NCBI GenBank assembly: GCA_026387175.1 | Contig: JAPLME010000008.1 | Coordinates: 149,883 to 213,882, forward strand | Origin: Candidatus Omnitrophota bacterium | Lineage (GTDB): Bacteria > Omnitrophota > Gorgyraeia > 2-01-FULL-45-10 | Direction: 5' to 3' | DNA length: 64,000 nt | Shown: in pieces, positions 246 through 62,374 of the stretch | Numbering within the stretch: the first letter of the stretch is position 1 | Layout of the letters: every line of letters starts with the position of its first letter | Program-made: the position numbers and the translations under genes | Notes under the pieces: model-generated | What the model saw: only the letters and a program-made list of their open reading frames with translations | What the model was told of the DNA's origin: nothing | The model's database searches: none

Positions 246-1018
246 TAATCGCGGAATGTAAGAATATAAAGAAGAGTTTTCCGATAAAACGCGGTTATCT
301 GCAGGATGAGATTGGCAGGGTGACGGCTGTAGATGGCGTATCGCTCGATATCGGGAAAGGATGTTCTTTCGGCATCGTCGGCGAATCGGGCTCGGGCAAG
401 ACTACGCTCGGCAAGATCATGCTGGGTGTTTTAAAACCTGATTCAGGCGAAGTGAGGGTCTATACCGATAAACTTCAGGTGATATTTCAGGATCCGTACA
501 ATAGTCTCGATCCTAAGATGAAGGTATTCGATATACTTGCGGAAGGACTGATCTTAAAAAAAGAGACTGATCAAATATCAAAGAGGGTAGAGGATATCAT
601 GGACATCATAAAGTTGCCAAAGCCCGCCCTCCATAGATATCCCCACCAGTTTTCCGGCGGTGAACGTCAGAGGATAGCTATAGGAAGAGCTCTCATTACA
701 GAGCCTGAATTCATAGTATGCGATGAGCCTGTATCGAGCCTTGACGTTACGATCCAGCTGCAGATATTAAGGCTGCTTAAAGACGTTCAGAAACGATTTA
801 ATATAACCTACCTATTCATAAGCCATGACCTGCGGGTCGTGCGCTTCATCTGCGACCGCGTTGCCGTCATGAAAGACGGCAAGATTGTAGAAGAGGGAAG
901 CGCCTCCGACATATATTCCCGCCCGGCGCACCCATACACTAAGCTGCTCCTCTCATCCGTTCTCCACATCTACCCCCGAAAAATCTCCTGGGGAAACGTG
1001 GGCGAAAATATCGTATAG
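242..1018 (+). CDS. ABC transporter ATP-binding protein (OppF/DppF-like)
   Basis: Walker A GESGSGKTT, signature FSGGERQRIAIGRAL, Walker B FIVCDEPVSSLD, H-loop SHD. The last codons (GENIV*) coincide with the outer TIR of a Y-type repeat. Confidence 0.85.
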   Translation: MIIAECKNIKKSFPIKRGYLQDEIGRVTAVDGVSLDIGKGCSFGIVGESGSGKTTLGKIMLGVLKPDSGEVRVYTDKLQVIFQDPYNSLDPKMKVFDILAEGLILKKETDQISKRVEDIMDIIKLPKPALHRYPHQFSGGERQRIAIGRALITEPEFIVCDEPVSSLDVTIQLQILRLLKDVQKRFNITYLFISHDLRVVRFICDRVAVMKDGKIVEEGSASDIYSRPAHPYTKLLLSSVLHIYPRKISWGNVGENIV

Positions 1019-1300
1019 GTGATGCCCCAGACGAGATCCTTCAGGCAGCGGAACTTCTGCGGGAAGCCTGGAGCGACTTTCGTAAAATCTTGATACTTCT
1101 AGGCGATATACCAGGACAATGAAACTGCACAATAGCTTTACGCATATGCAGGTTCATTGGCCATCAAGATTTTACAACAGCGAATTTACATGCCTAATGT
1201 AAATTCGCGACAAGCGGAAGGCTTACCGCAGAAGTTTCGCTGCTGTAGGAGAAGCGAAGGGACAGGGCCCGAGGGATGTTTTCGCTCTTGATTAGCGGGG
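1007..1300 (+). repeat. Y-type structured palindromic repeat, copy Y1 (type-1 long variant)
   Basis: Outer TIR GGCGAAAATATC (1007) pairs with GGATGTTTTCGC (~1270). Nested TIR GCAGCGGAACTTCTGCGGGAAGCC (1046) pairs with GGCTTACCGCAGAAGTTTCGCTGC (1220-1243). Internal hairpins GTAAAATCTTGAT...ATCAAGATTTTAC and GCGAATTTACAT-gcct-ATGTAAATTCGC (1180-1208). Near-identical to 24383-24657. Confidence 0.6.
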
Positions 1301-6302: not shown

Positions 6303-6480
6303 GATGGATTTTTTGGCTTCGTCAGATGGCAGAACTTTTTGGCACCTTACTGGAGCGACTTTCTAAAATTTCGATACCTATAGGCGGTACAGGCTTCACC
6401 ATCGAAATTTTAGCAACAGCGAGCGAGGAAGCCTATTCCGAGCGAGCGGCAAGCGGAAGCAGGTGCCAAAAGTGAATGCC
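6303..6480 (+). repeat. Y-type repeat, truncated copy Y4 (short variant)
   Basis: CAGATGGCAGAACTTTTTGGCACC...AAAATTTCGATACCTATAGGCGGTACAGGC...ATCGAAATTTTA...GAGCGAGCGGCAAGCGGAAGCAGGTGCCAAAAGT. Outer arms TTTTGGCACCT/AGGTGCCAAAA are complementary. Homologous to 15625-15780. Confidence 0.5.
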
Positions 6481-6511
6481 ATCACGTTGCAGCCAAAAAA
6501 TCAAACGAGAT

Positions 6512-13304: not shown

Positions 13305-13308
13305 GAAG

Positions 13309-13445
13309 GGGTCTTCGGGGTGGGGTGACCTGCATTGGCGGGAATTCCCCGGCCGGCGGTAAAGCCCGCGAGTCCCTGTGTCCGAGGGGCAGAACTTGTG
13401 AGATTCAAGTGCCGACAGTACAGACTGGATGGTAGAAGACGCCTC
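13309..13445 (+). ncRNA. FMN riboswitch (RFN element) aptamer
   Basis: Conserved RFN blocks are present: CTTCGGGGTGGGGTGA...GGGAATTCC...GGCGGTAAAGCCCGCGAG...CCGAGGGGCAGA...GAGATTCAAGTGCCGACAGTACAGACTGGATGGTAGAAGA. It sits in the ribBA leader. Confidence 0.85.
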
Positions 13446-13532: not shown

Positions 13533-14729
13533 ATGAAACTGAATACGATTCCAGAAGTTCTCAGCGACCTTAAAAAAGGCAAGATGGTCATAGTCATAGA
13601 TGATGAGGACCGCGAAAACGAAGGTGATCTCATAATGGCGGGACAATTTACCAGGCCCGAAGATATAAATTTCATGGCCCGTGAAGGTCGCGGCCTGATA
13701 TGCGTCCCTATGGAAGGAGCCAGGCTGGATGAGCTTGACCTGCATCCGATGTCGTCCAGAGCTTTTGACCCGTATAAGACCGGCTGGGCGATATCCTGTG
13801 ACGCGAAGAAAGGAATAACTACAGGCATTTCAGCAAACGACAGGGCGCGCACCATAAATATTTTGGCAAGTTCCAAATCGAAGGCATCTGATCTGGTCAA
13901 GCCCGGGCATATCTTTCCGTTAAGAGCTAATGAAGGCGGCGTCCTCGTCAGGGCCGGCCACACAGAGGCATGCGTTGATCTGATGAAGCTATCCAGGCTG
14001 TATCCAGCCGGTGTTATATGCGAGATAATGAAGGACGACGGCACGATGGCCAGGACCCCCGATTTAATAGCATTCGCCGGCACGCACTCCTTGAAGATAT
14101 GCACCATGGAGAGCCTGATAGAGTACAGGCGTAAGTCTGAAAAGCTGATCAAGAGAATAGCGCAGACAAATATGCCTACGCCTTTCGGCAATTTTAAAGT
14201 CTTTGTTTACGAGTCGCTCGTCGATAAACAGCATCACCTCGCCCTTATCAAGGGAAGGCCCGACAAAAATGACGCGCTGGTCAGGGTGCATTCGGAATGC
14301 CTGACAGGAGATGTATTCGGATCCAAAAGATGCGACTGCGGCGAACAGCTTCATACCGCGATGAAGCTGGTAGATAAGAACGGAAGCGGCGTTATACTAT
14401 ATATGAGACAAGAGGGTCGCGGCATAGGGTTGGCTAATAAGTTGCGGGCTTATGAGCTGCAGGACAAAGGGATGGATACCGTTGAGGCCAATGAAGCCCT
14501 GGGTTTTAAGCCCGATCTGAGGGATTATGGTATAGGGGCGCAGATACTCGCGGATCTGGGATTGAAGAATATAAGGCTCCTTACGAATAACCCGAAAAAG
14601 ATAGTGGGTCTGGAGGGGTATGGCCTTAAGGTGATAGAGAGAGTGCCGATACATGTCCTGGCGAACAAGGCCAACGCAAAATATCTTAGGACCAAGAGGG
14701 AGAAACTGGGTCACGACTTGAAAGTGTGA
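13533..14729 (+). CDS. ribBA: bifunctional 3,4-dihydroxy-2-butanone-4-phosphate synthase / GTP cyclohydrolase II
   Basis: 398 aa. N-terminal DHBP synthase (DDEDRENEGDLI) and C-terminal GTP cyclohydrolase II Zn site (CLTGDVFGSKRCDCG). Confidence 0.9.
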   Translation: MKLNTIPEVLSDLKKGKMVIVIDDEDRENEGDLIMAGQFTRPEDINFMAREGRGLICVPMEGARLDELDLHPMSSRAFDPYKTGWAISCDAKKGITTGISANDRARTINILASSKSKASDLVKPGHIFPLRANEGGVLVRAGHTEACVDLMKLSRLYPAGVICEIMKDDGTMARTPDLIAFAGTHSLKICTMESLIEYRRKSEKLIKRIAQTNMPTPFGNFKVFVYESLVDKQHHLALIKGRPDKNDALVRVHSECLTGDVFGSKRCDCGEQLHTAMKLVDKNGSGVILYMRQEGRGIGLANKLRAYELQDKGMDTVEANEALGFKPDLRDYGIGAQILADLGLKNIRLLTNNPKKIVGLEGYGLKVIERVPIHVLANKANAKYLRTKREKLGHDLKV

Positions 14730-15267: not shown

Positions 15268-15850
15268 ATTTTTCGGCTGCAAGCGATAGTCTAGAGCCTT
15301 CGGGCACTTGCTTTCGCTTGTTGCGGTTTATCCCTCGCGGGGCGGTGCTTCGCAGGGACGCGAAATTTCCCCTGCGAGGAAATTTCGCTCGGAAAGATCG
15401 CTCGCTCTTTTTGGCATACAGGTATACCAGGGCCAAAAATCCGTGCCCGCTCGCGACTTTCGACGCCCTGCTTAGCACCGCCCCCGCGAGGGATAACTGA
15501 GTAACGAAGAAGATAGTGCCCAAAAGCTCCCTGCACTATGCAAGGAGCCGAAAAAATTACTGGGGGTAGTGAGCAGAGAGTGAGATTGTAACAGTGAACG
15601 GAGGCGAAAATATCCTTCAGTACGTCAGATGGCGGAACTTTTGGGCGATGCTGAAGCGACTTTATAAAATTTCGATACCTATAGGCGGTACAGGCTTTAT
15701 CATCGAAATTTTATCAAGAGCGAGCGAGGAAGCCTATTCCGAGCGAGCGGCAAGCGGAAGCATTGACCGAAAGTAAACGCCGGACTGAGATGTTTCTAGG
15801 ATATTTTCGCTGTAGTGAGGATATTTTCAGTGCGAACCATAACTTCGGTT
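15268..15850 (+). repeat. composite structured repeat: X-type palindrome (X1, ~15268-15570), linker, Y-type element (Y3, ~15603-15850)
   Basis: X1 has an 18-29 bp TIR GGTTTATCCCTCGCGGGGCGGTGC/GCACCGCCCCCGCGAGGGATAAC around the core palindrome GCGAAATTTCC-cctgcga-GGAAATTTCGC. Y3 has outer TIR GGCGAAAATATCC (15603) pairing with GGATATTTTCGC (15810) and a nested hairpin AAAATTTCGATA...TATCGAAATTTT. Homologous to 24094-24657. Confidence 0.6.
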
Positions 15851-15912
15851 TAGGTCCAAACTGGAATTTGAAGGATGCTGTTGCCGTAGTTGCAAATGAA
15901 TGAGGAGGGAAG

Positions 15913-19481: not shown

Positions 19482-19558
19482 CGGGGCGTAGCGCAGCTGG
19501 CTAGCGCGCTTGGTTCGGGACCAAGAGGTCGGCGGTTCAAATCCGCCCGCCCCGACCA
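19482..19558 (+). tRNA. tRNA-Pro (anticodon CGG)
   Basis: Cloverleaf folds. Acceptor CGGGGCG/CGCCCCG, D-arm GCGC-AGCTGGCTA-GCGC, anticodon stem CTTGG/CCAAG with loop TTCGGGA, T-arm GGCGG-TTCAAAT-CCGCC, and encoded CCA. Confidence 0.9.
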
Positions 19559-24089: not shown

Positions 24090-24093
24090 ATTT

Positions 24094-24657
24094 TTCGGAT
24101 TCTATAGTTTGTCCCTTGCGTGTGGGTGCTTCGCGGGGACGCGAAATTTCCCCTGCGAGGAAATTTCGCTCGGAAAGATCGCTCGCTCTTTTTGGCAAGT
24201 AAGCGTACCAGGGCCAAAAATCCATGCCCGCTCGCGACTTTCGACGCCCCGCTCAACACCCACACGCAAGGGACTGCTGAGTAGTCCGAAAAATTTACTG
24301 ACAGGGTGAGTAGAGAGTGAGATTGGGATGGTGAGCGGAGGCGAAAATATCGCATGATGGATGGCGCCCCAGGTGATATCCTCAGGCAGCGGAACTTCTG
24401 CGGGAAGCCTGGAGCGACTTTCGTAAAATCTTGATACCTATAGGCGATATACCAGGACAATGAAACTGCGCGACAGTTTTTTACGTATAGGCAGGTTCAT
24501 TGGCCATCAAGATTTTACAACAGCGAATTTACATGCCTAATGTAAATCTGCGACAAGCGGAAGGCTTACCGCAGAAGTTTCGATGCTGTAGGAGAAATGA
24601 AGGGGGCGAGCCCCTGAGGATATTTTCGCCGTAGTGAGGATAGACGTAACTTCGGAA
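24094..24657 (+). repeat. composite structured repeat: X-type palindrome (X2, ~24094-24300), linker, Y-type element (Y2, ~24344-24657)
   Basis: X2 has an 18-bp perfect TIR GTCCCTTGCGTGTGGGTG (24111) pairing with CACCCACACGCAAGGGAC (24257) around the same core as X1. Y2 is near-identical to Y1 (1044-1250). Confidence 0.6.
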
Positions 24658-24676: not shown

Positions 24677-24877
24677 GTGATGTGGTATTTAATAGGCGTC
24701 ATAGCGATAGCCCTGGTTGGCTTCTTTTTGTATGCGAACGCGAAGAAGAATAAGCGGGATGCGGAAAAAGCCAAGGCGGGAGATAAGCCGCCTTTCCGTA
24801 CGGAGGAAAAGCTGAGCTCATACAACAAGCCGATGGATAATCAGCACTCGCATGTAGACTTTGATGACGCGGAGTAG
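24677..24877 (+). CDS. hypothetical small membrane protein (66 aa)
   Basis: Strong RBS AAGGAGGTG 5-8 nt upstream. One TM helix (LIGVIAIALVGFFLY) then a charged tail. Start is GTG 24677 or ATG 24680. Confidence 0.4.
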   Translation: MMWYLIGVIAIALVGFFLYANAKKNKRDAEKAKAGDKPPFRTEEKLSSYNKPMDNQHSHVDFDDAE

Positions 24878-27948: not shown

Positions 27949-28879
27949 GAAATTTCTCATCAGCGCCCATATAAACCCGGAAGGCGATTCCCTCTGCAGT
28001 CAGCTCGCTATGAAGGAGCTCCTGATAGCCATAGGCAAGGAAGCCGCGATAGTTAATAATGATCCTGTGCCGGAGCACTACAAATTTCTGCCGGGAATAG
28101 ACAAACTTTCGACGGATTTGACTAAAAAGGTGGATTTCGACGCGGTCCTGATCCTGGATTGTCCGACCCTGAAAAGGGTGGGCAGCGTAGCCGGCATTAT
28201 AGGTAAGGGCAAAACCATAATAAACATAGATCATCATATTTCGAGTGAGAGATTCGGCGATGTAAACTGGGTCGATGCCAATGCCAGCTCCACGGGTGAG
28301 ATGGTATATAAGCTCTTTAAAGAGATGAGCGTGCCTCTAACTAAAGGTATCGCGCTCTCGATATATATAGCTATTCTGACGGATACAGGTTCATTTAACT
28401 ACGATAACACATCCGCCATAACACATGAGATAGCGGGCGATCTTTTAGGATATGGCCTTGAGCCCGGGTCAGTTTCTGAAAGCGTCTATGAGCGCAGGAC
28501 CCTGACCGATATAAAACTCCTCGGCCTTGTTCTGTCGACTCTGAAGGTCAATGAAACCGGTGAGGTAGCGTACCTCGAGATAACGCGAAAGATGGTTTCT
28601 GAAACGGGCGCCGATGTAACCAAGAGCGAAGGGTTTATCAACTATGCCCGTTCCATAGAGGGCATTAAAGTGGCGGTGCTATTTAAAGAGGACTTAAAGG
28701 ATAAGAATAAGATAAATATCAGCTTTCGCTCCAAAGGAAGGGCCGATGTCAACAGGATCGCGTCATCTTTCGGCGGCGGAGGACATGTGAAAGCTTCCGG
28801 TTGTATCCTCGAAGGCACCCTCGCCGATATCGAAGCCAAAGTCATCGCTAAGGTCGAAGAATCGCTAAAGCGCAGATAA
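27911..28879 (+). CDS. nrnA: DHH/DHHA1 phosphoesterase (NrnA-type oligoribonuclease/pAp phosphatase)
   Basis: DHH motif IINIDHH and DHHA1 GGGGHVKASG. Confidence 0.75.
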   Translation: MMQEVIEAIKKHKKFLISAHINPEGDSLCSQLAMKELLIAIGKEAAIVNNDPVPEHYKFLPGIDKLSTDLTKKVDFDAVLILDCPTLKRVGSVAGIIGKGKTIINIDHHISSERFGDVNWVDANASSTGEMVYKLFKEMSVPLTKGIALSIYIAILTDTGSFNYDNTSAITHEIAGDLLGYGLEPGSVSESVYERRTLTDIKLLGLVLSTLKVNETGEVAYLEITRKMVSETGADVTKSEGFINYARSIEGIKVAVLFKEDLKDKNKINISFRSKGRADVNRIASSFGGGGHVKASGCILEGTLADIEAKVIAKVEESLKRR

Positions 28880-28889
28880 ATTTTTTAAT

Positions 28890-29576
28890 ATGGAGAATAT
28901 AGACGGGATATTGATTGTAGACAAGCCGCAGGGCATGACGAGCCATGACGTTGTCGATGTCGTCCGCAGGCTCTATGGAACGAGGAAGGTGGGGCATGCG
29001 GGTACGCTCGACCCTATGGCGACCGGTGTCCTGATAATGCTTATTGGCAAGGCCACCAAAGTCTCGCAGGATCTCAGCGCCGAAGAGAAAGAGTATGATG
29101 CGACGCTTGTCTTAGGCGCGCGATCCGCTACGGGAGACGCCTGGGGTAAACTGGACCGTTCCGAAGGGCCGGTCGATTTTACCGATGACGAGATCAGGGC
29201 TGTCTTCAAACAATTTGAAGGTGAAATCGAGCAGACCCCTCCGGCCTATTCCGCAAAAAAGATCAACGGCGTAAAGATGTATCATCTCGCGCGGAAAGGC
29301 AAAAGTATTGAGGCCAGGCCGCAGAAGATATCGATAAAAAAGATATCCATATCGAAGATCGCTCTCCCCGAAGTCTCATTTGAACTCACCTGTTCAAAGG
29401 GTACTTATGTAAGGCAGCTCTGTATTGATATAGGAGAGCTTTTAGGCTGCGGCGGATATCTCTCGGCCCTGGAGCGCAGGCGCTCCGGGCGATTTACGAT
29501 GAGCCAGGCGAATTCGCTGGAAGAACTGAAGAAGATGAACCCCGCGCAGTTGGCGGAGAGGGTGCTGCCCGTATGA
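28890..29576 (+). CDS. truB: tRNA pseudouridine(55) synthase
   Basis: Catalytic-Asp motif HAGTLDPMATGVL. Confidence 0.9.
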   Translation: MENIDGILIVDKPQGMTSHDVVDVVRRLYGTRKVGHAGTLDPMATGVLIMLIGKATKVSQDLSAEEKEYDATLVLGARSATGDAWGKLDRSEGPVDFTDDEIRAVFKQFEGEIEQTPPAYSAKKINGVKMYHLARKGKSIEARPQKISIKKISISKIALPEVSFELTCSKGTYVRQLCIDIGELLGCGGYLSALERRRSGRFTMSQANSLEELKKMNPAQLAERVLPV

Positions 29577-44065: not shown

Positions 44066-45640
44066 TTAAATTCCATTACGCGACGCAAGTATCGCGTTTG
44101 ATATATCGGAGCTCCTTAGAACTCGCAGATCATATTTTTTTATGATCTCCTTGTCAGGCTCGAGCAGATAGTAGAAATCATATATTCCGTCAGGGCCCTG
44201 CCGGGTCGTGAAATCGATCCAGTACGTCTTATCCTTTATTATATAGTAGTTCGTTGCGGGTTCAAAAAGCCAGTTGATGCCTATCCTGTATTTATTTCCT
44301 CCGGGTATATTATTTTTTGTCAGGTCGTAGATCTTCCGCATGACGTTCTTTGTGTCGGCATCATATTTCCATATGTGAAAATGGGTGATATTCATACATA
44401 AAATTCCGTGCAGGACCGCTGCTGAAATAATTACAAAAAAGAACCCGTTCATTATCGCCCTCCAAGCGCTATGGGCGGAGGAAGAGAGAGAGGACCAAAA
44501 AGATATCACGAGCACTAAATAGAGCGGGACCAGGTATATGGCCGCTCTATCAATAGCGTATTTTATATGGAAGAATGTAAATTGAATATTCATCGAAACG
44601 ATTATCAGCAACAGGAGCATCGCGAGCCATAATGTATTCGTGTTATTCTTGTTACCTGGGCGCCCATTGATACCTATCGATATCGCGACGATGAGAGCTA
44701 TGACATATAGCATAAATATGATGATTTTTATGACATGCAGCGCTTCCGGCCCTGCATAGCTTTTACCGTAGAGGACGCACTCCAGGACTGTGGTCACAGT
44801 GTTTGCCCAGAAGCCTGTTGTGCCGCCATAATCTGTGATAAAAAGCTTGATCCTGTCCATGACGGGAGCGCTGTAAATAAAACGCAATACTATCAGGATG
44901 CACGCGGCTGGAATCAGGAATCCCATGGCCAGTGTTTTGAAGGCTTTGACCATGGAGTTTTTCGCCGCGCGAATCATTTCATATATTTCGGATATGCCGA
45001 TTAACGCCATTATCGCGAATAGGACATTCGCAAAAGCCAGGTTTGATAACACGGAAAACCCGAGCATGGACAGGGTTAAGATATTGCAGCGAGGACGCAG
45101 GCTATCGCAAGCGTAATTTCTTTTCAAGAAAAAGTATAGGCCGAACATCAGGAAGCCGACCCCCAGAGCGTATCCCCTGGCGCAGGAAAAGAAGTCCAGT
45201 AAAAACGGGTTTGTCGTCAGCAGCAAAAATCCGAGCAGGTACTTGGCTTTTTTAAAAAAAAGGTCAAGTATTTTGAGAGACGCGACCAGGTAAAGGATAT
45301 GTCCGATCAGCGCCGGGATCCTGATAACAAATTCATTGTTCCCGAGCACTTCGCAGAAGAATTTAATGAATAACGTATTGAGCAGATGATTATTCGAACT
45401 GATAGCTCCCGCGTGTAAGAATATGTTTCGTATGCTTCCCTGCGCATGAATGAGATAGGTGAGCGCTTCATCGTGGCTTATCGATATGACGCCTGCTCGA
45501 AAGCATGTATAGCAGAAAAGCGCGCAGGCAATTATGAATGCCGTGAATTGATACCGGTCGGCGTTGTACCAAGGGCCGGGCCGGATGCCGGACATAGATT
45601 CATCTACGGTTTTTTGTACGGCGTGTTTCTTTCTTTTCAT
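44066..45640 (-). CDS. polytopic membrane protein, putative GT-C-fold glycosyltransferase (PMT/ArnT-like)
   Basis: About 10 predicted TM helices and an early-loop DE motif (SHDEALTYL). A C-terminal soluble domain. Confidence 0.45.
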   Translation of the reverse strand: MKRKKHAVQKTVDESMSGIRPGPWYNADRYQFTAFIIACALFCYTCFRAGVISISHDEALTYLIHAQGSIRNIFLHAGAISSNNHLLNTLFIKFFCEVLGNNEFVIRIPALIGHILYLVASLKILDLFFKKAKYLLGFLLLTTNPFLLDFFSCARGYALGVGFLMFGLYFFLKRNYACDSLRPRCNILTLSMLGFSVLSNLAFANVLFAIMALIGISEIYEMIRAAKNSMVKAFKTLAMGFLIPAACILIVLRFIYSAPVMDRIKLFITDYGGTTGFWANTVTTVLECVLYGKSYAGPEALHVIKIIIFMLYVIALIVAISIGINGRPGNKNNTNTLWLAMLLLLIIVSMNIQFTFFHIKYAIDRAAIYLVPLYLVLVISFWSSLSSSAHSAWRAIMNGFFFVIISAAVLHGILCMNITHFHIWKYDADTKNVMRKIYDLTKNNIPGGNKYRIGINWLFEPATNYYIIKDKTYWIDFTTRQGPDGIYDFYYLLEPDKEIIKKYDLRVLRSSDISNAILASRNGI

Positions 45641-47075
45641 CTTTCCCTTCTAATATAGGATGTATGATCTCTCCCGGCGGCGAGACCATCATGAAGTAGA
45701 TAAAAATAATAGTCGGCCATAGCTGCAGGACCAGGCGGTTTAAGGTGGTGCCTATATGCCACTTGAGATCGTATGGGCTAGTAAGATATATTGCGCAGTA
45801 ACCGGTAAGCATAATTAATACCGCGAGTATCGATATAAGAACCGCTGTCCGGTCTTCCTTTCTGATCGATATGCCGGCAAGGAATAAATATACTAAAAGG
45901 ACGGGGACCGCGCCTGTGAAGAGAAACCCGAGCCGGAAAAATTCGTTAGTGAACCCCGATATTATAAAGTAATACCTGGACGGGTCGGCCAGTTTTTCTG
46001 CCCAGTGCCCGGATATTTGGGCCGCCAGAATATCTTTGTTGGGCGGCGCCAGGAAGAGCTTGAAATATATGATAATTAAAAGGATAGGACTTGAGCCGGC
46101 GAGAAACGCCGCCATTTGCCGTAAGCTCCCGCGGATGCCGATGATCGGAACGGTCACGAAGATACGGGAAATAATGACTGCCGCTAAAAAGAACAGGCCC
46201 TCGTTTTTTGTCCAGGCTGCGAATGCCGTTATTAAGCCGGCGAGCACCAGGAATCCATTATTTTTGCCGGGCAGTCTCTCATTGAGGTATAAGATAACGA
46301 TACTCGCTAAGATAAAAAATGATAGCGGCACATCGGCGTATTGAGACGCTCCATGCAGGATGAATGACGGTGTGCCCAATAAGATGAAAGCGCCTAAGAG
46401 GCCCTGTTCTCTCCCCCGCAAGAGGGAGAGCGACGATTTCAATAGCCCGATAGTGGCAAATGTGAAGACCAGCGCGATAGCGGCCGGTGCGAGAGTCTGA
46501 CATTTACCCATATAGGCCCAGCTCCTGGCTATCATACCTGGCAGCAGAAGAGGGTAATCCGGGTTTGTCCAGCTTATGACATTGGTAAAGGCATCTTTCC
46601 AGGCGGCCAGTCCACGGAAAATGAACCGTGCCCTCATGTTCCATATGGCCCATGCGTCCCATCCACCATGCGGCTGGCAAGCCGATTTTGATATGAAGGA
46701 AGATATCGCGAATGCGGTTGCGCACAAAAACGCCGCTGTTAGAACATAATAGACCCTATTGGAAAAGATCTGGTTTTCGGCCCTCCGCAGCATCAGGCAT
46801 TCTTGAGCCTCCTGTTTTAACGCGCCGAATAATACCGCTCCCAGCGCGGCGCACAGCAGCAGTTCCGCGATTACGAACGACGCAAAACCAAACCGGTAAG
46901 CGCTCATAACGAGCCATAAAAAGAATAGGGATGAGGATATTCCTATTCCTATGCCTACCGCAAGGGCTAGCTTGAGAGACAGGTTAGTTATCAGCGGTTT
47001 TCGGCAGGGCCAGGCGATGAATACCAGCAGAAGCCCCATTGCCAGCGATATTATTAGTGACGCAAAAAGTATCAT
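45600..47075 (-). CDS. polytopic membrane protein (possible GT-C-like glycosyltransferase)
   Basis: Many hydrophobic segments and a Lys/Arg-rich C-terminal tail. In tandem with the preceding membrane protein. Confidence 0.4.
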   Translation of the reverse strand: MILFASLIISLAMGLLLVFIAWPCRKPLITNLSLKLALAVGIGIGISSSLFFLWLVMSAYRFGFASFVIAELLLCAALGAVLFGALKQEAQECLMLRRAENQIFSNRVYYVLTAAFLCATAFAISSFISKSACQPHGGWDAWAIWNMRARFIFRGLAAWKDAFTNVISWTNPDYPLLLPGMIARSWAYMGKCQTLAPAAIALVFTFATIGLLKSSLSLLRGREQGLLGAFILLGTPSFILHGASQYADVPLSFFILASIVILYLNERLPGKNNGFLVLAGLITAFAAWTKNEGLFFLAAVIISRIFVTVPIIGIRGSLRQMAAFLAGSSPILLIIIYFKLFLAPPNKDILAAQISGHWAEKLADPSRYYFIISGFTNEFFRLGFLFTGAVPVLLVYLFLAGISIRKEDRTAVLISILAVLIMLTGYCAIYLTSPYDLKWHIGTTLNRLVLQLWPTIIFIYFMMVSPPGEIIHPILEGKDEKKETRRTKNRR

Positions 47076-47509
47076 GAGGGCGCATCCTCATTACGTAACA
47101 AAAAGACGCCGTTTCCGGCATTCATGATAACGCTGAATCTGCCATATGCGCTTATATCTGGAAGCGCGGAGGAGTGAAAATTGCCTATCACGATACCTCT
47201 GCGGGGATTATTATCAACTACGACCGGAGCGACGGCATACTGTGTCAGATAATATTCCGCCTGAAGATTGCCGTAAGCCATGACGGCTTCCGGGGGAGCT
47301 TCCGTAATATACCCTACTGCGCCCCGGGCCGGTAACGCCGCCCTGACCGCGGCAAAGCGTTCTTCGTATTGAGTGATTTGATCGCGAGGGCCTGTATTAA
47401 TCCGCTCGTTTCCGGTTTTTGTGAACAACTCGGCGCAGGTAATAAGAGAGAGGATGATAATGATAAAAATTCCGGCTTTAAGTGGCGCGAACCTCATTGT
47501 ATATCCCAT
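47072..47509 (-). CDS. hypothetical membrane-anchored/exported protein
   Basis: N-terminal hydrophobic anchor GIFIIIILSLITCAELF. Overlaps the upstream gene by 4 nt. Confidence 0.35.
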   Translation of the reverse strand: MGYTMRFAPLKAGIFIIIILSLITCAELFTKTGNERINTGPRDQITQYEERFAAVRAALPARGAVGYITEAPPEAVMAYGNLQAEYYLTQYAVAPVVVDNNPRRGIVIGNFHSSALPDISAYGRFSVIMNAGNGVFLLRNEDAPS

Positions 47510-56820: not shown

Positions 56821-59800
56821 ATGTTTGTTAAAAGAACAAAAATAATATCGGCGTTTCTTGTAGTGGCATTTTTTGTCCAGGATTTATCATGGGCATATCC
56901 GGACCATTTTGCCTATGACCGCCCTTCCAATAATAAATTGGCGCCGGCGCCTTTCAGCGAAAGAGTATCTCCTGAAGACATAACGAAATCTCTCATCTTA
57001 GTAATAGAGCAAAATCACCATGTTTCAATAAAGAGCCTTGTGCTTGATGGTGTAGAAGCCATACTGAATGAATATCAGGAATTCCTGAAGCAAAATAGCA
57101 TAAGTTTTTTAAAAAAGCCCAGAGAAATTAGAATAAATATTAATCCAAATATTATTTTGCGCTATACCGATCATGCCATGCCGCTAGATGGTATATCTGG
57201 CTTCAAGGTCGGATCTCAAGAAAAGACAGGGGCTCTTGTAAGGCAGATTTTAATAAGAATTGAAAAGAGACCCACGCTACGTTCAAGGCAGCTTCAGCTT
57301 GATTTTGGATCGCCCGCAAAAGAAACCGTCGCAGAAGGAGAAAAAACGGCAGAAACTCCTGTAGCCCCTGCAACGCAGGGAGAAATTAAGAATAAACCCC
57401 GTGTATCTATTATGCTGTTTCAGGATATCGCAAGACTGGATTCAAAGATAACGAATGCCGTTATATCGTCTATGAATATGCTGGAAGATAGAATGCACCG
57501 CTCGCGTGTGGTTATGGGGGCAATAGATGTTTTACGGGATGATATTATCGGATATGGCCATGTCAGGGCCGATGCCTTTGAACGGTTTTCGAAAAAAGTA
57601 TCAGGTGTTTTGGACAGATGGATAATGAGCGATAAAGGGAAGGAGACAATCCGCGGCAGACTGGCCAAAATAAGCCTCAAGATAAACGAGAGGGACGATT
57701 TATTGAAAGGCATAGATATATCCTATTATGGTTTGGCAAGAGAGCTGAAAGGCGAAAAAGGCGCGCAGCAAATTATATTCCTGCTGCTTAGTATAGAGGC
57801 GGGGCTTAGGGAAGTGGCGGAAGCGATGGATGAGCACAGCAGGCTGAAATCGAGATTTAATGTAATTGCGGCTGACTTGAAAGCGATTCGTAAGTGGATG
57901 AGCATAAGAGGCGAACGCCCAGGAAAGGATTTAACAAGTTGCGAAAAGGCGTTGAAAGCGATGGCGAAACATGCGCCTCTCCAGCTTCATGATCAAATTT
58001 TGAATTTAACGGATAAAATAGCAGTTTTAAAGCCATTCGTAGAAAGTGTATGGGAAGTTAAGCCGCCTGCCGGATCGGTACCCGGCGTATTTAAATATTT
58101 ATGCTCGCCAGATATCCAATCGTTTGAAAGACCTCCTCGCGCCGATGAGGTTGCCGATAACCTCGGTCGGTCGTATGATACGATAAGGCGCGATCTGTGG
58201 GACCTCTATTACCATCTTCATCTTCTCGATAAGGTAGACGTTAGGGAATCGGGCAGGGATGCTCGCTATTATGTCCCCGAACGCGTTAAGAATAAGTATG
58301 ATGACATATACCCGATCCTGAACCAGTTCATCGGTAAAAAACTCCGTCCCACAATAAAAGATCTCGAAAGCGCATATAGGGCTATTATCAATCTTATAGG
58401 TGTCCGCGATCCAACCACAGGCAAATTCAATTTGGTCTCTATATCAAAACGCACTGATTACAAAGGCAGATTTAATATTAATATCTTCGGCGATGGAAAA
58501 ATCCAGTTTAATATCGGTACCGGCTATTCGTTAAAAAATATTGAGCTCATCCCGTTAACCGATAACTGGCGGGAAGGCTTTGAAGTCTACCATCAGAGTA
58601 ATCTGATAGGTACGTGCGATCCATCCACCGGCGAATTTAGCCCGATTCAAGAGGTCCGGAAACCGGGCGAAGACCGCCGGTTCAATCTGGACAGAGTTCG
58701 CTATATTCTCCTCGATGCAGGCTACGCTAGCGGTGGTGCGAATAGGGAAATCAGGATCATTGCCTTTGACGGTTTCGACTGGACTAGCGGTTTTAAGGTC
58801 TATCATCTGGACAGAGAAATTGCCTCTTATGATAAAAAGCGCAATGTTATGATCGGCATGTCTGTCGCCGGAAGATTGAGACCACCAGGCGCGCGGGCTA
58901 GGGTGCTGCTACAAATGCAAATTCCGAATAAAGACACCAATAAAAACGGAAGGGCGTTTACAGCTGAAATAAGTAATTTTATAATTAAACATCGGTCGAT
59001 TCTTGGCACGAGAGAAAAAGATATAGAGACTATCCTTGACGAAGTAGGTCTTAATATCATGGAGCATGGCAATGGCGGCGAGATAATGGTAGAAACTGAA
59101 AAATCTGCGGATGGCAGATTACGATTAAAGATAATCGGGAAAGATAAAGGGAGCGGTCTTCCGGCCTCGCCGGACGAGCTTGTAAAAACTAGCCTTGCCT
59201 CGCGGAAACGCTTTGAACGCGAACCTGATGCAGATGATAAAGACATTATGGTGAGAGGGCGGGGGTTTTCGAGAATAGCACTCGGTCCTGACAGTGTAAC
59301 TATTGAATATCAGGGGAAGAGGTTTGTCAGGTTTACGGATAATAAGGATGCCGGCTCGTGGTTTCGTGAAGAAAACGTCGCAGGCAGTAGCGCAAAGGGT
59401 ACAAATTTTGAGCTTAAATTTGAGTTGGGACGCGAACTCACCTCATGGGGGCCTGAAGCGGAGACGCTTGCTGATATACATGATCTGTTTAACATTAAAA
59501 TTCCATCTCGAACAAATGATAATACAAAAATATTATTATCCGAAAATCTGTTTATAAAAAATAGTAATGAGACAGAGCTGATTCAGGTCAGGATAGCGCT
59601 CGCGTCGCTCCTCAATAGCGGAAATATTGCAATTATGAAACCGGATGAGATGAGAAGGGCCGCGATGAATCGGCATGTCTCAAAGGACAAACTTGCGACA
59701 GTTTTTACCGAAGAAGATTTCAATAATAAAGGGATATGGAATGGTTGTGACAAAGAAGCATCGCTCAGGTCAAGTGTCCTGATACTTGGTGACAGGCTAA

Positions 59801-60069
59801 TGGGCAATAATTATCTGTATCTGGAAGGCGTTATAGGTCTTGCACGGGCGATGATGGTGAATAACAAGTATGCGGTTAGAAAATACTATGATTTGATATC
59901 GGGTACTGTTATAGATAATGAGATGATGAAATTATTAAATGAGGATGATCAAAATAATCTTTCTTTCGCTATCAGGGCCGTACTAAGATTTAAGCCCATA
60001 ACCAGGACCGATCCGGAAGACTTGAATGAGCTAAAGATCAGGATGGAGAAGTTCTTAATCGCCGCTTAA
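56821..60069 (+). CDS. large hypothetical membrane-anchored protein (1082 aa) with a GHKL/HATPase_c-like ATP-binding motif; AT-richer than its surroundings
   Basis: N-terminal hydrophobic anchor IISAFLVVAFFV. Around residues 735-790 it has an N-box-like NIMEHGNGGEIMVE and G1-box-like IIGKDKGSGL. No overall family recognised. Its own promoter is TGGTATACT (extended -10) at ~56806. Confidence 0.6.
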   Translation: MFVKRTKIISAFLVVAFFVQDLSWAYPDHFAYDRPSNNKLAPAPFSERVSPEDITKSLILVIEQNHHVSIKSLVLDGVEAILNEYQEFLKQNSISFLKKPREIRININPNIILRYTDHAMPLDGISGFKVGSQEKTGALVRQILIRIEKRPTLRSRQLQLDFGSPAKETVAEGEKTAETPVAPATQGEIKNKPRVSIMLFQDIARLDSKITNAVISSMNMLEDRMHRSRVVMGAIDVLRDDIIGYGHVRADAFERFSKKVSGVLDRWIMSDKGKETIRGRLAKISLKINERDDLLKGIDISYYGLARELKGEKGAQQIIFLLLSIEAGLREVAEAMDEHSRLKSRFNVIAADLKAIRKWMSIRGERPGKDLTSCEKALKAMAKHAPLQLHDQILNLTDKIAVLKPFVESVWEVKPPAGSVPGVFKYLCSPDIQSFERPPRADEVADNLGRSYDTIRRDLWDLYYHLHLLDKVDVRESGRDARYYVPERVKNKYDDIYPILNQFIGKKLRPTIKDLESAYRAIINLIGVRDPTTGKFNLVSISKRTDYKGRFNINIFGDGKIQFNIGTGYSLKNIELIPLTDNWREGFEVYHQSNLIGTCDPSTGEFSPIQEVRKPGEDRRFNLDRVRYILLDAGYASGGANREIRIIAFDGFDWTSGFKVYHLDREIASYDKKRNVMIGMSVAGRLRPPGARARVLLQMQIPNKDTNKNGRAFTAEISNFIIKHRSILGTREKDIETILDEVGLNIMEHGNGGEIMVETEKSADGRLRLKIIGKDKGSGLPASPDELVKTSLASRKRFEREPDADDKDIMVRGRGFSRIALGPDSVTIEYQGKRFVRFTDNKDAGSWFREENVAGSSAKGTNFELKFELGRELTSWGPEAETLADIHDLFNIKIPSRTNDNTKILLSENLFIKNSNETELIQVRIALASLLNSGNIAIMKPDEMRRAAMNRHVSKDKLATVFTEEDFNNKGIWNGCDKEASLRSSVLILGDRLMGNNYLYLEGVIGLARAMMVNNKYAVRKYYDLISGTVIDNEMMKLLNEDDQNNLSFAIRAVLRFKPITRTDPEDLNELKIRMEKFLIAA

Positions 60070-61357: not shown

Positions 61358-61930
61358 ATGCGCGCTTTTATAGCGATCGAAATATCGGATGAGATTAAAG
61401 ATGCGCTTGCCCGGATAGAATCCCACCTTAAATATGCCGGCGCAGACGTCAAATGGGTCAATCCGAAGATCATCCATCTCACTTTAAAATTCATGGGCGA
61501 GATTAACGATAATAAATGTGAGGTCGTAAAGTCCGCGTTGGATGCTATTGCAAAAAGCGCGAAGTCCTTTGAGGTGACAGTAAAAGATGTCGGAACTTTT
61601 CCGAATAGCGCTCGTCCGCGGGTTATCTGGTTAGGCCTCGACAAGGGGGCTTCCGAATCGGTTGAGCTCGCAAAGCGTATAGAGGAGTCGCTATCTAAAA
61701 TAGGATTTCCCGCAGAGAATAGGCCCTTCAGCCCTCATCTGACAATAGGCCGTGTCCGCTCATCGCTCAATATCGAAAAGCTTAAAGAGAAGATATCCTC
61801 AGCATCATTAGAGATCCAGCCCGGCGGTACCATTTCACAAAAAGTCACTTCCATAATCCTCTTCCAGAGCACCCTCACTCCTCAGGGCCCCATCTACACC
61901 AAGCTCCACGAAGCTCCGCTCGAAGCGTAG
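61358..61930 (+). CDS. thpR: RNA 2',3'-cyclic phosphodiesterase (2H family, LigT/ThpR)
   Basis: Two HxT/S motifs, HLTLKF and HLTIGR. Confidence 0.8.
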   Translation: MRAFIAIEISDEIKDALARIESHLKYAGADVKWVNPKIIHLTLKFMGEINDNKCEVVKSALDAIAKSAKSFEVTVKDVGTFPNSARPRVIWLGLDKGASESVELAKRIEESLSKIGFPAENRPFSPHLTIGRVRSSLNIEKLKEKISSASLEIQPGGTISQKVTSIILFQSTLTPQGPIYTKLHEAPLEA

Positions 61931-62220
61931 GTGAAAATATTCCTGGTGGATATATCTGATGGCGGAACTTTCGGCTCGATGCTGGAATAATTGCAGTCAT
62001 TTTACGGGTGACGCAAGATCCAGCCTTGAGGGGCGCAGCGTAGGATGGGTTCAATATAGCTACCCGCCTGGATGGACTGATATTGTAAACCCTACGCAAG
62101 CACCGAAAGGCGATCTTGCGGCAGGACCCGTAAAATGATGCTGTTCAGCGGAAGCATTGACCGAAAGTAAACGCCGGACTGAAGATTCCGATATAATATT
62201 TTCGCCGTAGTGAGGAACTA
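61931..62220 (+). repeat. Y-type structured repeat, copy Y5 (variant with nested hairpins)
   Basis: Outer TIR GGTGAAAATATTCC pairs with AATATTTTCGCC. Nested TIR GGCGGAACTTTCGGCTC pairs with GACCGAAAGTAAACGCC. Inner hairpins TCATTTTACGGGT...ACCCGTAAAATGA, CGCAAGATC...GATCTTGCG and GCGTAGGATGGGTT...AACCCTACGC. 3' tail GTAGTGAGGA. Confidence 0.55.
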
Positions 62221-62374
62221 TTTTAAAATAATGTGCAACAATTTTGGCCATTTCAGCGTCTTATATAGGGAGGGAAAATTAACTTTACAGAAAGGAGGTA
62301 GTGACTGTATAATAAATCCCTGCGTATAGTATAGTTATATCTATATAATATATAGAAAACCTAAGGAGAATAAG

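What the first reader, a model, noticed from the sequence alone, without database searches (positions are those of the whole stretch)
15603..15850. Y-type element: a structured, nested-inverted-repeat intergenic repeat family with five copies in 64 kb
Copies sit at ~1007-1300, 6303-6480, 15603-15850, 24344-24657 and 61931-62220. All share the same architecture. (i) An outer TIR GGCGAAAATATC(C) pairs with GGATATTTTCGCC. (ii) A nested TIR is GCAGCGGAACTTCTGCGGGAAGCC / GGCTTACCGCAGAAGTTTCGCTGC in the long variants (1044, 24383), or GGCGGAACTTT(T/C)GG.. / CCGAAAGTAAACGCC in the short variants (15630, 61960). (iii) A central perfect hairpin is GTAAAATCTTGAT...ATCAAGATTTTAC, AAAATTTCGATA...TATCGAAATTTT, or TCATTTTACGGGT...ACCCGTAAAATGA. 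(iv) The long variants add a 13-bp perfect hairpin GCGAATTTACAT-gcct-ATGTAAATTCGC (1180-1208). (v) A shared 3' tail is GGATATTTTCGC(C/T)GTAGTGAGGA...AACTTCGG. Arm sequences differ between variants while pairing is retained. All five copies have the same orientation and lie between co-directional genes. This density and level of structure resembles modular BOX/ERIC/Correia-type elements or a structured ncRNA. I recognise no published family with these sequences.
Basis: seen in the sequence. Interest (0 to 1): 0.8.

Follow-up and report, generated by a model that had tools for sequence, protein, structure and literature searches.

The report
Structured mobile intergenic repeats in Omnitrophota
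The five "Y" copies are real members of an undescribed family of 165-290 nt non-coding repeats, found so far only in some uncultivated Omnitrophota bacteria. They fold into a conserved rod-plus-fork shape and have been inserted, swapped and flipped in the gaps between housekeeping genes.

Summary
Five same-strand copies (1001-1286, 6303-6502, 15603-15811, 24340-24630, 61930-62206) share one fold: outer stem, P1/P2 rod, a purine-rich internal loop, and a three-way junction carrying hairpins P3 and P4. A covariance model finds no further copy in the window.

Related copies turned up only in five or more Candidatus Omnitrophota assemblies. Across 15 non-redundant copies, 95% of cells pair and 35 of 48 pairs show compensatory changes. 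G-U outnumbers A-C 64 to 8, so one strand folds. Rfam, plasmid, phage and literature searches found nothing.

The elements are insertions. A syntenic relative has 0-16 nt spacers and no copy in 43 kb. Close relatives (88-89% amino-acid identity) have an empty site, or a different family member in the opposite orientation, in the same spacer. Assemblies break inside copies. Chimeric, deleted and nested copies exist. No transposase was found nearby.

Best reading: a non-autonomous, structure-dependent mobile repeat superfamily (Y, plus X, Z and W modules). It resembles REP/BIME and MITE elements in lifestyle but is far more elaborately folded, and it is co-transcribed inside operons. The mobilising enzyme, and whether the functional fold is RNA or single-stranded DNA, remain unresolved.

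The parts
1001..1286 (+). Y copy c1 (long variant). Outer stem 1001-1013 / 1274-1286. It overlaps the last 18 nt of the ABC-ATPase ORF (stop at 1016-1018). It is followed at once by the promoter-like site TTGATT-17-TATAAT (1288-1316) of the HhH-GPD gene.
   Evidence: 106 bits; -128.6 kcal/mol, z -9.6
6303..6502 (+). Y copy c2 (short variant) with its own outer stem, 6307-6318 / 6491-6502. It fills the asd-truA spacer, starting right after the asd stop and ending 9 nt before the truA ATG at 6512.
   Evidence: 170 bits; truA start as annotated; z -5.0
15268..15557 (-). X element copy 1. Outer arms ATTTTTCGGCT (15268-15278) / AGCCGAAAAAAT (15546-15557); core 15324-15502. It folds better on the minus strand with the same topology as Y. 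It is probably a diverged, inverted relative, lying head-to-head with c3.
   Evidence: (D1: 90% identical to the second copy)
15558..15602 (+). Conserved linker ...GGGGGTAGTGAGCAGAGAGTGAGATTG... between the head-to-head pair. It is also present at c4, in L056 and in L111, always in the direction of the genes.
   Evidence: (D9)
15603..15811 (+). Y copy c3 (short variant; the finding). Outer stem 15603-15615 / 15799-15811. P1a 15631-15634 / 15778-15781. P1b+P2 15637-15651 / 15760-15774. J1 UGAAGCGACUUU 15652-15663. P3 15664-15676 / 15702-15714, with apical loop 15677-15701. J2 15715-15719. P4 15720-15731 / 15737-15748, with loop GCCUA 15732-15736. J3 GGCAAGCGGAA 15749-15759.
   Evidence: -94.7 kcal/mol, z -5.1; 175 bits
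15812..15860 (+). 3' tail: GTAGTGAGGA, then GGATATTTTCAGTGCGAACCATAACTTCGGTTTAGGTCC. The latter is the right-end remnant of another repeat type (W) that is complete in L111.
   Evidence: (D7)
24090..24295 (-). X element copy 2. Outer arms 24090-24101 / 24283-24294; core 24105-24282. It lies head-to-head with c4.
   Evidence: (19.6 bits on the minus strand)
24296..24339 (+). Linker ...GGGTGAGTAGAGAGTGAGATTGGGATGGTGAGCGGA.
   Evidence: (D9)
24340..24630 (+). Y copy c4 (long variant). Outer stem 24340-24352 / 24618-24630, then the tail GTAGTGAGGATAGACGTAACTTCGG. The whole 590-nt spacer between the xerC/D-like gene and the small ORF is absent in the relatives L106 and L107.
   Evidence: 96 bits; z -8.7
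61930..62206 (+). Y copy c5 (chimeric). It has the outer stem, the P1/P2 frame and the AGCGGAAGC junction of Y, but the core is replaced by a Z-type hairpin module (61997-62138; arms TCATTTTACGGGT / ACCCGTAAAATGA). The recA promoter-like site lies at 62284-62313.
   Evidence: D17; 46 bits; z -7.9

Best explanation
Y is a family of non-autonomous, multi-copy, mobile non-coding elements. It belongs to a wider superfamily that includes the X, Z and W modules. So far it has been found only in a sub-clade of Candidatus Omnitrophota.

**Shown**
- The sense strand folds into a conserved shape: a long irregular rod (outer stem, P1, P2, a purine-rich G.A internal loop) ending in a three-way junction with hairpins P3 and P4.
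- Stems differ between subfamilies through compensatory changes, while junction and loop nucleotides stay fixed.
- Copies are lineage-specific insertions into very short spacers of conserved housekeeping operons.
- The same spacer can hold different family members, in either orientation, in close relatives.
- Cores, frames and outer stems occur in different combinations.

**Inferred**
- The element spreads through a folded single-stranded intermediate that a trans-acting enzyme recognises. That enzyme is encoded elsewhere in the genome and was not identified.
- Because each stem layer is a near-palindrome, homologous recombination or template switching between copies can swap or invert the inner cassette inside an existing outer stem.
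- Copies inserted inside operons (asd-truA, ribH-nusB) must be transcribed as part of the mRNA. There the roughly 20-bp near-perfect rod would most likely act as an RNase III or decay-barrier structure, as in REP and Correia elements. This would be a side effect or secondary co-option, not the reason the elements exist.
For: **Family and fold**
- Covariance model R1 finds 43 matches (30 distinct), all in Omnitrophota loci.
- In the 30 distinct copies, 97.1% of cells pair and 33 of 48 pairs have compensatory changes.
- In 15 non-redundant copies, 95.1% of cells pair and 35 of 48 pairs have compensatory changes.
- In both sets, 0 of 500 shuffles reach the observed values. Registers slid by 1-3 columns give 31-44% paired.
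- The fold is strand-specific: 64 G-U cells against 8 A-C cells. For c3 the + strand folds at -94.7 kcal/mol and the - strand at -72.7.

**Mobility**
- GCA_023818895.1 is syntenic over 43 kb. Its asd and truA genes overlap, its ribH-nusB spacer is 16 nt, and it has no model hit.
- L106 and L107 (88-89% amino-acid identity) have 34 and 62 nt where the window has 590 nt of X + Y.
- L111 (88%) carries an antisense Y-short with a different P2 in the asd-truA spacer.
- L056 has Y(-)/Y-long(+) where the window has X/Y-short(+).
- L043 has Y-long on the other side of the small ORF.
- L109 has an antisense copy where the window has a 10-nt spacer.
- Many of the 30 distinct copies are cut by a contig end. 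Independent assemblies of the window organism also end inside c1 and c5.

**Decay products typical of repeats**
- A chimera with a broken P2 (L092), a deletion derivative lacking P3 and P4 (L079), and a nested or replaced core (c5).

**Context**
- Neighbouring genes are unrelated housekeeping genes, and no transposase or reverse transcriptase is nearby.
- c2 leaves no room for a promoter, so it is transcribed within the operon.
Against: - No mobilising protein, no target-site duplication and no precise element ends could be defined. The flanks are themselves a patchwork of repeat remnants.
- A 165-nt three-way junction with about 35 invariant unpaired nucleotides is far more than known HUH or RAYT enzymes recognise, and looks more like a functional RNA.
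- The sense orientation relative to the downstream gene is over-represented (16 of 21 copies). This could reflect RNA-level selection rather than the insertion mechanism.
- Compensatory changes in DNA palindromes can also arise by arm-to-arm template switching, without selection on structure.
- No expression data were available.
Confidence: 0.6

Rival explanations
1. Y is primarily a functional structured RNA class, such as an RNP scaffold, a ribozyme, or a guide/partner RNA of an unidentified protein. It would be expressed from the copies, and its multiplication would be secondary.
For: - Junction and loop nucleotides (CUGRAGCGACUUU, ACAACA, GCGRCAAGCGGAAG, loop GCCUA, GAUAC...GGCGAUAUA) are invariant across subfamilies whose stems have changed at most positions.
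- G-U outnumbers A-C 64 to 8.
- A tandem G.A purine loop is conserved even in the distant L109 and X versions.
- The sense orientation predominates, 16 of 21.
- A possible loop-loop contact, GCCUA:UAGGC, has one apparent compensatory change in L043.
Against: - No conserved promoter or terminator flanks the copies.
- Intact copies occur antisense to their neighbours (L111, L056, L109).
- Presence or absence and turnover differ at the same spacer among close relatives.
- Chimeric, truncated and nested copies exist.
- A syntenic relative lacks the family in 43 kb.
- No Rfam family matches.
Confidence: 0.2
2. The fold matters only as single-stranded DNA. Y would be a REPIN/PATE-like substrate of a Y1-HUH transposase, or of another enzyme specific for single-stranded DNA, acting on the lagging-strand template. 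Its orientation would then follow replication rather than transcription.
For: - All five window copies have their folding strand on the G-rich, presumably leading-sequence strand. The GC skew is +0.11 to +0.16 throughout, which would place that strand on the lagging-strand template.
- Head-to-head pairs with a conserved linker recur: X(-)/Y(+), Y(-)/Y(+), and U1/Y. This resembles inverted REP doublets and BIMEs.
- GTAG follows the outer stem in 4 of 5 copies that have this stem type.
- No ordinary direct repeats were seen at the ends.
Against: - No Y1/RAYT gene was seen in the annotated parts of the window or next to other copies. Whole genomes could not be searched.
- The element is 5-8 times larger and far more elaborate than any known HUH recognition hairpin.
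- Replication direction and gene direction are confounded in the window, so this orientation test was not possible.
Confidence: 0.15
3. Y is a cis-acting host signal, for example a transcription terminator or insulator between genes, or a regulatory leader (riboswitch-like) of the downstream gene.
For: Copies sit between a gene end and the next promoter (c1, c5, and several copies in the SO_2016_GW1_1 MAG, 'GW1'). No canonical intrinsic terminator is present in these spacers.
Against: - No U-tract follows the stems.
- c2 and c3 lie inside operons upstream of truA and nusB, which need read-through.
- Downstream genes are functionally unrelated: HhH-GPD glycosylase, truA, nusB, recA, hisG, purH, gcvT and others.
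- Promoters lie between Y and the start codon, so Y is not in the leader.
- Relatives manage without it.
Confidence: 0.05

Closest known systems
REP / BIME elements and REPINs of Enterobacteria and Pseudomonas (mobilised by RAYT Y1 transposases)
   Same: Both are extragenic palindromic repeats in the spacers of operons. Both occur in both orientations, often as inverted (head-to-head) pairs separated by conserved linker motifs. Both have a mosaic, modular organisation, are co-transcribed, and keep structure rather than sequence.
   Different: REPs are 20-40 nt simple imperfect hairpins. Y is 165-290 nt, with a three-way junction, conserved purine loops and several nested stem layers. No RAYT was identified, and the family is limited to some Omnitrophota.
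MITE-type structured repeats: Correia/NEMIS (Neisseria), ERIC/IRU (enterobacteria), RUP and BOX (pneumococcus), bcr1 (Bacillus cereus group)
   Same: Both are short, non-coding and multi-copy. Both have terminal inverted repeats, insertion polymorphism between strains, and modular variants (BOX A/B/C; long and short Correia). Both are transcribed into mRNAs as long hairpins that RNase III can cut (Correia; from established literature, not tested here).
   Different: In those families the fold is essentially the two inverted ends pairing. In Y, the inner core has its own conserved branched architecture, with covariation in five helices. Outer inverted repeats differ between copies, and no target-site duplication or parent IS was found.
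IS200/IS605-derived palindrome-associated elements, and the structured RNAs of mobile elements (omega RNA / HEARO of IscB-TnpB, IS110 bridge RNA)
   Same: Both involve strand-specific folded nucleic acid, many orphan copies without an ORF, no classical inverted ends with direct duplications, and 150-300 nt structured non-coding parts with covariation.
   Different: There is no Rfam match to HEARO or the IS605-orfB motifs. No TnpA, TnpB, IscB or IS110 gene lies next to any copy examined, and no guide-like variable single-stranded segment was seen.
Integron attC sites
   Same: Both show structure-not-sequence conservation, strand-specific folding, and location between co-directional genes in one orientation.
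   Different: The flanking genes are syntenic housekeeping genes, not cassettes. The adjacent tyrosine recombinase is a 296-aa XerC/D-like protein conserved at the same place in relatives that lack the elements. Y is larger and branched.

Membership tests
Any Rfam 15 RNA family | Match to a curated covariance model at or near its gathering score | tested here: not met
   The whole window at gathering threshold gave only the FMN riboswitch and a tRNA. Permissive searches (E up to 10) over c3, X+c4 and c5 gave only chance-level eukaryotic miRNA, snoRNA and lncRNA hits.
MITE (miniature inverted-repeat transposable element) | Small, non-coding, multi-copy, with insertion polymorphism between related genomes | tested here: met
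   Copies are 165-290 nt. There are 5 copies in 64 kb, and many of the copies in the SO_2016_GW1_1 MAG are cut by a contig end. Empty versus filled orthologous spacers are shown.
MITE | Terminal inverted repeats shared by the family | tested here: inconclusive
   Four window copies share GGCGAAAATATC / GGATATTTTCGCC. c2, L056(+), L111 and L109 use other outer stems (ATTTTTYGGCT or AAAATTTTTCGC types), and the SO_2016_GW1_1 ('GW1') copies have none that is obvious.
MITE | Direct target-site duplication at the ends | tested here: inconclusive
   No consistent direct repeat was found when filled sites (window c4, L109) were compared with empty sites (L106, L107, window 28879-28890). The flanks are A/T-rich near-palindromes and repeat remnants, so the ends cannot be fixed.
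MITE | A related autonomous IS with the same ends, encoding the transposase | not testable with these tools
   No transposase was found in the annotated genes of the window or next to 10 copies elsewhere.
REP/BIME-REPIN | Short (about 20-40 nt) imperfect palindrome with a conserved 5' GTAG | tested here: not met
   The Y core is 165+ nt with a three-way junction. GTAG occurs 3' of the outer stem in c3, c4, c5 and L056, not 5' of a short hairpin.
REP/BIME-REPIN | Inverted doublets or mosaics with conserved linker motifs | tested here: met
   X(-)-linker-Y(+) occurs at c3 and c4, and Y(-)-linker-Y(+) in L056. Y(-)-linker-W occurs in L111, and U1 (which contains an antisense mini-Y)-Y in the SO_2016_GW1_1 ('GW1') copies.
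REP/BIME-REPIN | A cognate RAYT (Y1 transposase) gene in the genome | not testable with these tools
   None was found in the sequence examined. A genome-wide search was not possible.
Integron attC | Sites separate mobile gene cassettes downstream of an intI gene | tested here: not met
   The flanking genes are conserved syntenic housekeeping genes. The recombinase next to c4 is XerC/D-like and is present in element-free relatives.
Riboswitch or cis-regulatory leader | Located in the 5' UTR of functionally related genes | tested here: not met
   Promoter-like sites lie between Y and the start codon, and the downstream genes are unrelated.

The most novel reading that the evidence does not exclude
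The invariant three-way-junction core (P2 - G.A purine loop - J1/J3 - P3/P4) is a new class of functional RNA that rides on, or drives, its own mobility. One possibility is the RNA partner of an unrecognised Omnitrophota recombinase, nuclease or reverse transcriptase: a bacterial 'SINE-like' or guide-RNA-like element. Another is a new self-processing ribozyme that excises the element from operon transcripts. On this reading the X, Y, Z and W modules would be alternative RNA cassettes of one system.
Probability: 0.15. Interest if true: 0.85.

Novelty: new variant of a known kind. Interest (0 to 1): 0.55.

Why it matters
- Bacterial intergenic repeats (REP, ERIC, Correia, BOX) are usually simple hairpins. 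Here a repeat family carries a branched fold of the complexity seen in riboswitches or ribozymes, with 35 of 48 base pairs supported by compensatory change, in a phylum of uncultivated nanobacteria.
- If the fold is needed for mobility, it points to an unknown structure-reading mobilisation enzyme. If it acts as RNA, it is a new structured RNA class.
- In practice, these repeats fragment Omnitrophota metagenome assemblies and lengthen otherwise minimal operon spacers.
- The covariance model built here can be used to mask or track the repeats and to mark a sub-clade.

Tried and rejected
1. **Known RNA family.** Rfam at gathering threshold and at permissive thresholds gave nothing.
2. **Known plasmid or phage element.** blastn in distant mode found no match. 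The four viral-contig pattern hits did not match the model.
3. **Pattern hits outside Omnitrophota.** The genome scan returned 63 stretches, most of them single matches in unrelated phyla. None of those matched the covariance model, so they are chance hits.
4. **A mis-specified metagenome scan.** My one metagenome scan used NNNN where NNN was needed.
5. **Per-copy hypervariability of P2.** Rejected. GW1 has only 2-3 P2 types, plus one chimera.
6. **5'-UTR leader idea.** Rejected once sigma-70-like promoters were found between Y and the start codons.
7. **Terminator idea.** Rejected. There are no U-tracts, and c2 and c3 lie inside operons.
8. **Integron attC idea.** Rejected because of the syntenic housekeeping context.
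10. **Target-site duplication.** None was found.
11. **P4-loop: P3-loop kissing contact.** Only one apparent compensatory change, and some mismatches. Left as a hint.
12. **Literature.** No paper on Omnitrophota repeats or MITEs was found.
Full report
**1. Observation**

Reading the five stated places shows the same nested architecture on the + strand. The refined limits are:

| Copy | Coordinates |
|---|---|
| c1 | 1001-1286 |
| c2 | 6303-6502 |
| c3 | 15603-15811, plus a tail |
| c4 | 24340-24630 |
| c5 | 61930-62206 |

- The outer-arm motif is over-represented: 11 matches against 3.05 expected, with 0 of 100 shuffles reaching 11.
- c1 and c4 are 92-94% identical, c2 and c3 about 90%. c3 and c5 share a perfect 36-mer.
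- Each copy folds far better than its shuffles: z = -5.1, -9.6, -5.0, -8.7 and -7.9.
- All copies lie between + strand housekeeping genes:
  - ABC ATPase | HhH-GPD glycosylase
  - asd | truA
  - ribH | nusB
  - xerC/D-like | small ORF plus CBS-DHH-CCA enzyme
  - LigT | recA

c2 has a different outer stem. P4 exists in both short and long variants. The full tail is present only in c3 and c4. c5 is chimeric.

**2. Anatomy**

I aligned the short variants by hand and with MAFFT. Working inward, the fold is:

- an outer stem;
- P1a (GGCG/CGCC), then a small GA/AAA internal loop;
- a continuous P1b-P2 helix of about 15 bp;
- a purine-rich loop (CU-GGA-GC opposite GC-GGA-AG);
- a three-way junction with J1 (GCGACUUU), J2 (ACAACA) and J3 (GCGRCAA);
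- P3, 13 bp, with a conserved apical region GAUAC...GGCGAUAUAGGCUUU..CCAUC;
- P4, 12 bp, with loop GCCUA.

Long variants carry about 50 extra nt in the P3 apex and one more outer stem layer. The + strand folds much better than the - strand: -94.7 against -72.7 kcal/mol for c3.

**3. Relatives and covariation**

A pattern scan of one genome per species returned 63 stretches. Only those from Candidatus Omnitrophota MAGs were real:
- JBAYFK01 (SO_2016_GW1_1, called GW1 below), hit on more than a dozen contigs;
- JBAYMQ01;
- JAZDOS01;
- CAIMPC01.

The rest did not match the covariance model. Further copies came from relatives fetched through orthologous proteins: L109, L111 and L112.

The window itself is part of a 236,877-nt contig of an NCBI MAG labelled Candidatus Omnitrophica.

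Model R1 found no other strong copy in the window with filters off. It found 43 matches, 30 of them distinct, in the loci.

| Alignment | Sequences | Cells paired | Pairs with compensatory change | Shuffles reaching this | Slid-register controls |
|---|---|---|---|---|---|
| A4 | 30 distinct | 97.1% | 33 of 48 | 0 of 500 | 31-44% paired |
| A5 | 15 non-redundant | 95.1% | 35 of 48 | 0 of 500 | 34-42% paired |

G-U cells outnumber A-C cells 64 to 8, so one particular strand folds.

Two caveats apply:
- The alignments were fitted to the model.
- In DNA palindromes, arm-to-arm template switching can also produce paired changes without selection on structure.

Junction and loop nucleotides stay constant across subfamilies whose stems have been largely rewritten. 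The tandem G.A loop and the topology persist even in the divergent L109 copy and in the X element.

**4. Not a known family**

- Rfam 15 gives only the FMN riboswitch and tRNA-Pro in the window.
- Permissive searches over the elements give nothing meaningful.
- There is no similarity in the plasmid or phage collections.
- The viral pattern hits are chance.
- The full-text literature search found nothing on repeats or MITEs in this phylum.

**5. The elements are insertions and turn over fast**

- **Empty ancestral state.** GCA_023818895.1 (66-71% amino-acid identity) keeps the gene order over 43 kb. Its asd and truA genes overlap, its ribH-nusB spacer is 16 nt, and it has no model hit.
- **No Y at three orthologous spacers.** L115 and L116 (74% identity) have no Y at the spacers orthologous to c2 and c3, or upstream of the HhH-GPD gene where c1 sits in the window.
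- **xerC to small-ORF spacer.** The 88-89% relatives L106 and L107 have 34 and 62 nt here. The window has 590 nt of X + linker + Y. L107 keeps a remnant of about 45 nt of an antisense arm.
- **Nearby but different position.** L043 (77% identity) has a Y-long on the other side of the small ORF.
- **asd-truA spacer.** The window has a sense Y-short. L111 (88% identity) has an antisense Y-short with a different P2, followed by the linker and another element, W.
- **ribH-nusB spacer.** The window has X-linker-Y-short. L056 has Y-short(antisense)-linker-Y-long.
- **DHH-gene to truB spacer.** L109 has an antisense Y plus a Z element. The window has 10 nt there.
- **Assembly breaks.** Many of the matches are cut by a contig end. 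Independent assemblies of the window organism end inside c1 and start inside c5.
- **Degenerate forms.** A P2 chimera (L092), a copy lacking P3 and P4 (L079), and c5 with a Z-type core in a Y frame.

**6. A modular superfamily**

- X (15268-15557 and 24090-24295) is 90% conserved between its two copies.
- X folds better on the minus strand: -107.4 and -102.9 kcal/mol, against -98.8 and -97.6 on the plus strand.
- X aligns weakly to the Y model on that strand, with the same order of rod, G.A loop, P3 and P4.
- Head-to-head pairs separated by a conserved, gene-oriented linker therefore recur.
- In GW1, the upstream module U1 is about 195 nt, has its own inverted ends (CTCATATTTAAAGATTT) and contains an antisense mini-Y remnant.
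- The outer stems are variations on AAATTTTTCG / CGAAAAATTT. Because each layer is nearly palindromic, a donor copy can align with a resident stem in either orientation. I infer that this explains cassette swapping and flipping within constant outer stems.

**7. Relation to genes**

- Using ORF heuristics, the downstream gene is on the same strand in 16 of 21 copies, and the upstream gene in 10 of 15.
- Neighbouring genes are unrelated housekeeping genes, with no transposase or reverse transcriptase.
- For c1, c5 and several GW1 copies, a sigma-70-like promoter lies between Y and the start codon. Y is therefore not a leader.
- No intrinsic terminator follows any copy on the + strand.
- c2 begins right after the asd stop and ends 9 nt before the annotated truA start. 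The X + c3 block lies between ribH and nusB, which are only 16 nt apart in the relative.
- It follows that these copies are transcribed within operons and cannot be strong terminators.
- The GC skew is uniformly positive, so the replication and transcription directions cannot be separated in this window.

**8. Interpretation**

The descriptive conclusion is well supported: this is a new, clade-restricted family of structured, modular, mobile non-coding repeats.

The mechanism is inferred. The element probably spreads through a folded single-stranded intermediate read by an unidentified trans-acting enzyme, with recombinational exchange between copies. As RNA, the near-perfect rod inside operon transcripts would be an RNase III or decay-barrier structure, by analogy with REP and Correia elements (established literature, not tested here).

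The main rival is that the invariant branched core is itself a functional RNA. The data do not exclude this. The rival gains from the extent of junction conservation and the G-U bias. It loses from the absence of conserved promoters, the intact antisense copies, and the rapid gain, loss and replacement of copies.

**9. Verdict**

This is a real feature and it is not described. In lifestyle it resembles REP/BIME and MITE repeats, but its structural complexity and nested cassette organisation are unusual. I rate it a new variant of a known kind, with interest 0.55.

Noticed in passing
window 15268-15557 and 24090-24295: There is a second repeat family, X, whose two copies are 90% identical. It lies directly upstream of c3 and c4, is strongly structured (z -6 to -9), and folds better on the minus strand with the same topology as Y. 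It is probably an inverted, diverged relative.
   Followed up: partly
window 61997-62138; L109 14225-14445 and 8750-8930; upstream flanks of Y copies in the SO_2016_GW1_1 MAG (e.g. L074, L024, L015): There is a third module, Z: a long hairpin closed by TTTTACGGGTGRC...GGCAGGACCCGTAAAA. It occurs on its own in relatives and nested in place of the Y core in c5.
   Followed up: partly
window 15822-15860; L111 3515-3870: The tail of c3, GGATATTTTCAGTGCGAACCATAACTTCGGTT, is the right end of a further element of about 330 nt (W). W is complete in the asd-truA spacer of the 88% relative L111.
   Followed up: partly
L055 606-800, L092, L038, L054 (SO_2016_GW1_1 MAG): A repeat of about 195 nt (U1) with inverted ends CTCATATTTAAAGATTT precedes many Y copies. 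A variable spacer of about 19 nt separates U1 from Y.
   Followed up: partly
3' flanks of Y in the SO_2016_GW1_1 MAG (L074, L082, L090, L092, L017): G-rich tails such as GGGTGGGAAACTGGGAGGG follow the element. Some have four G-runs and could form G-quadruplexes.
   Followed up: no
L115 9845-10000 and 18866-18990: A Y-free relative carries a different small palindromic repeat, TAACCWGGTTAGA, several times in the same spacers.
   Followed up: no
window 13307-13444: An FMN riboswitch (90.1 bits) lies upstream of the ribBA gene at 13533-14729, at the head of the ribBA-ribH-(X,Y)-nusB stretch.
   Followed up: no
window 19482-19558: tRNA-Pro (CGG), the only tRNA in the window.
   Followed up: no
window 24680-24877: A small conserved ORF (65 aa, with a hydrophobic N-terminal stretch) lies between the xerC/D-like gene and the CCA-enzyme gene. 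It is present in L106, L107 and L043. The Y copy sits before it in the window and after it in L043.
   Followed up: partly
window 44066-47509 (- strand) and 56821-60069 (+ strand): Three consecutive minus-strand ORFs (524, 491 and 145 aa) and a 1082-aa plus-strand ORF have no Pfam match at E <= 1e-5.
   Followed up: no
window 1-64000: The GC skew (+0.11 to +0.16) and AT skew are strongly and uniformly positive, and nearly all genes are on the + strand.
   Followed up: no
window 975-1018: The last codons of the ABC-ATPase ORF run through CCCCCGAAAAATCTCCTGGGG (a repeat arm/linker motif) and into the outer stem of c1. Repeat sequence therefore appears to supply the C-terminus and the stop codon.
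   Followed up: no
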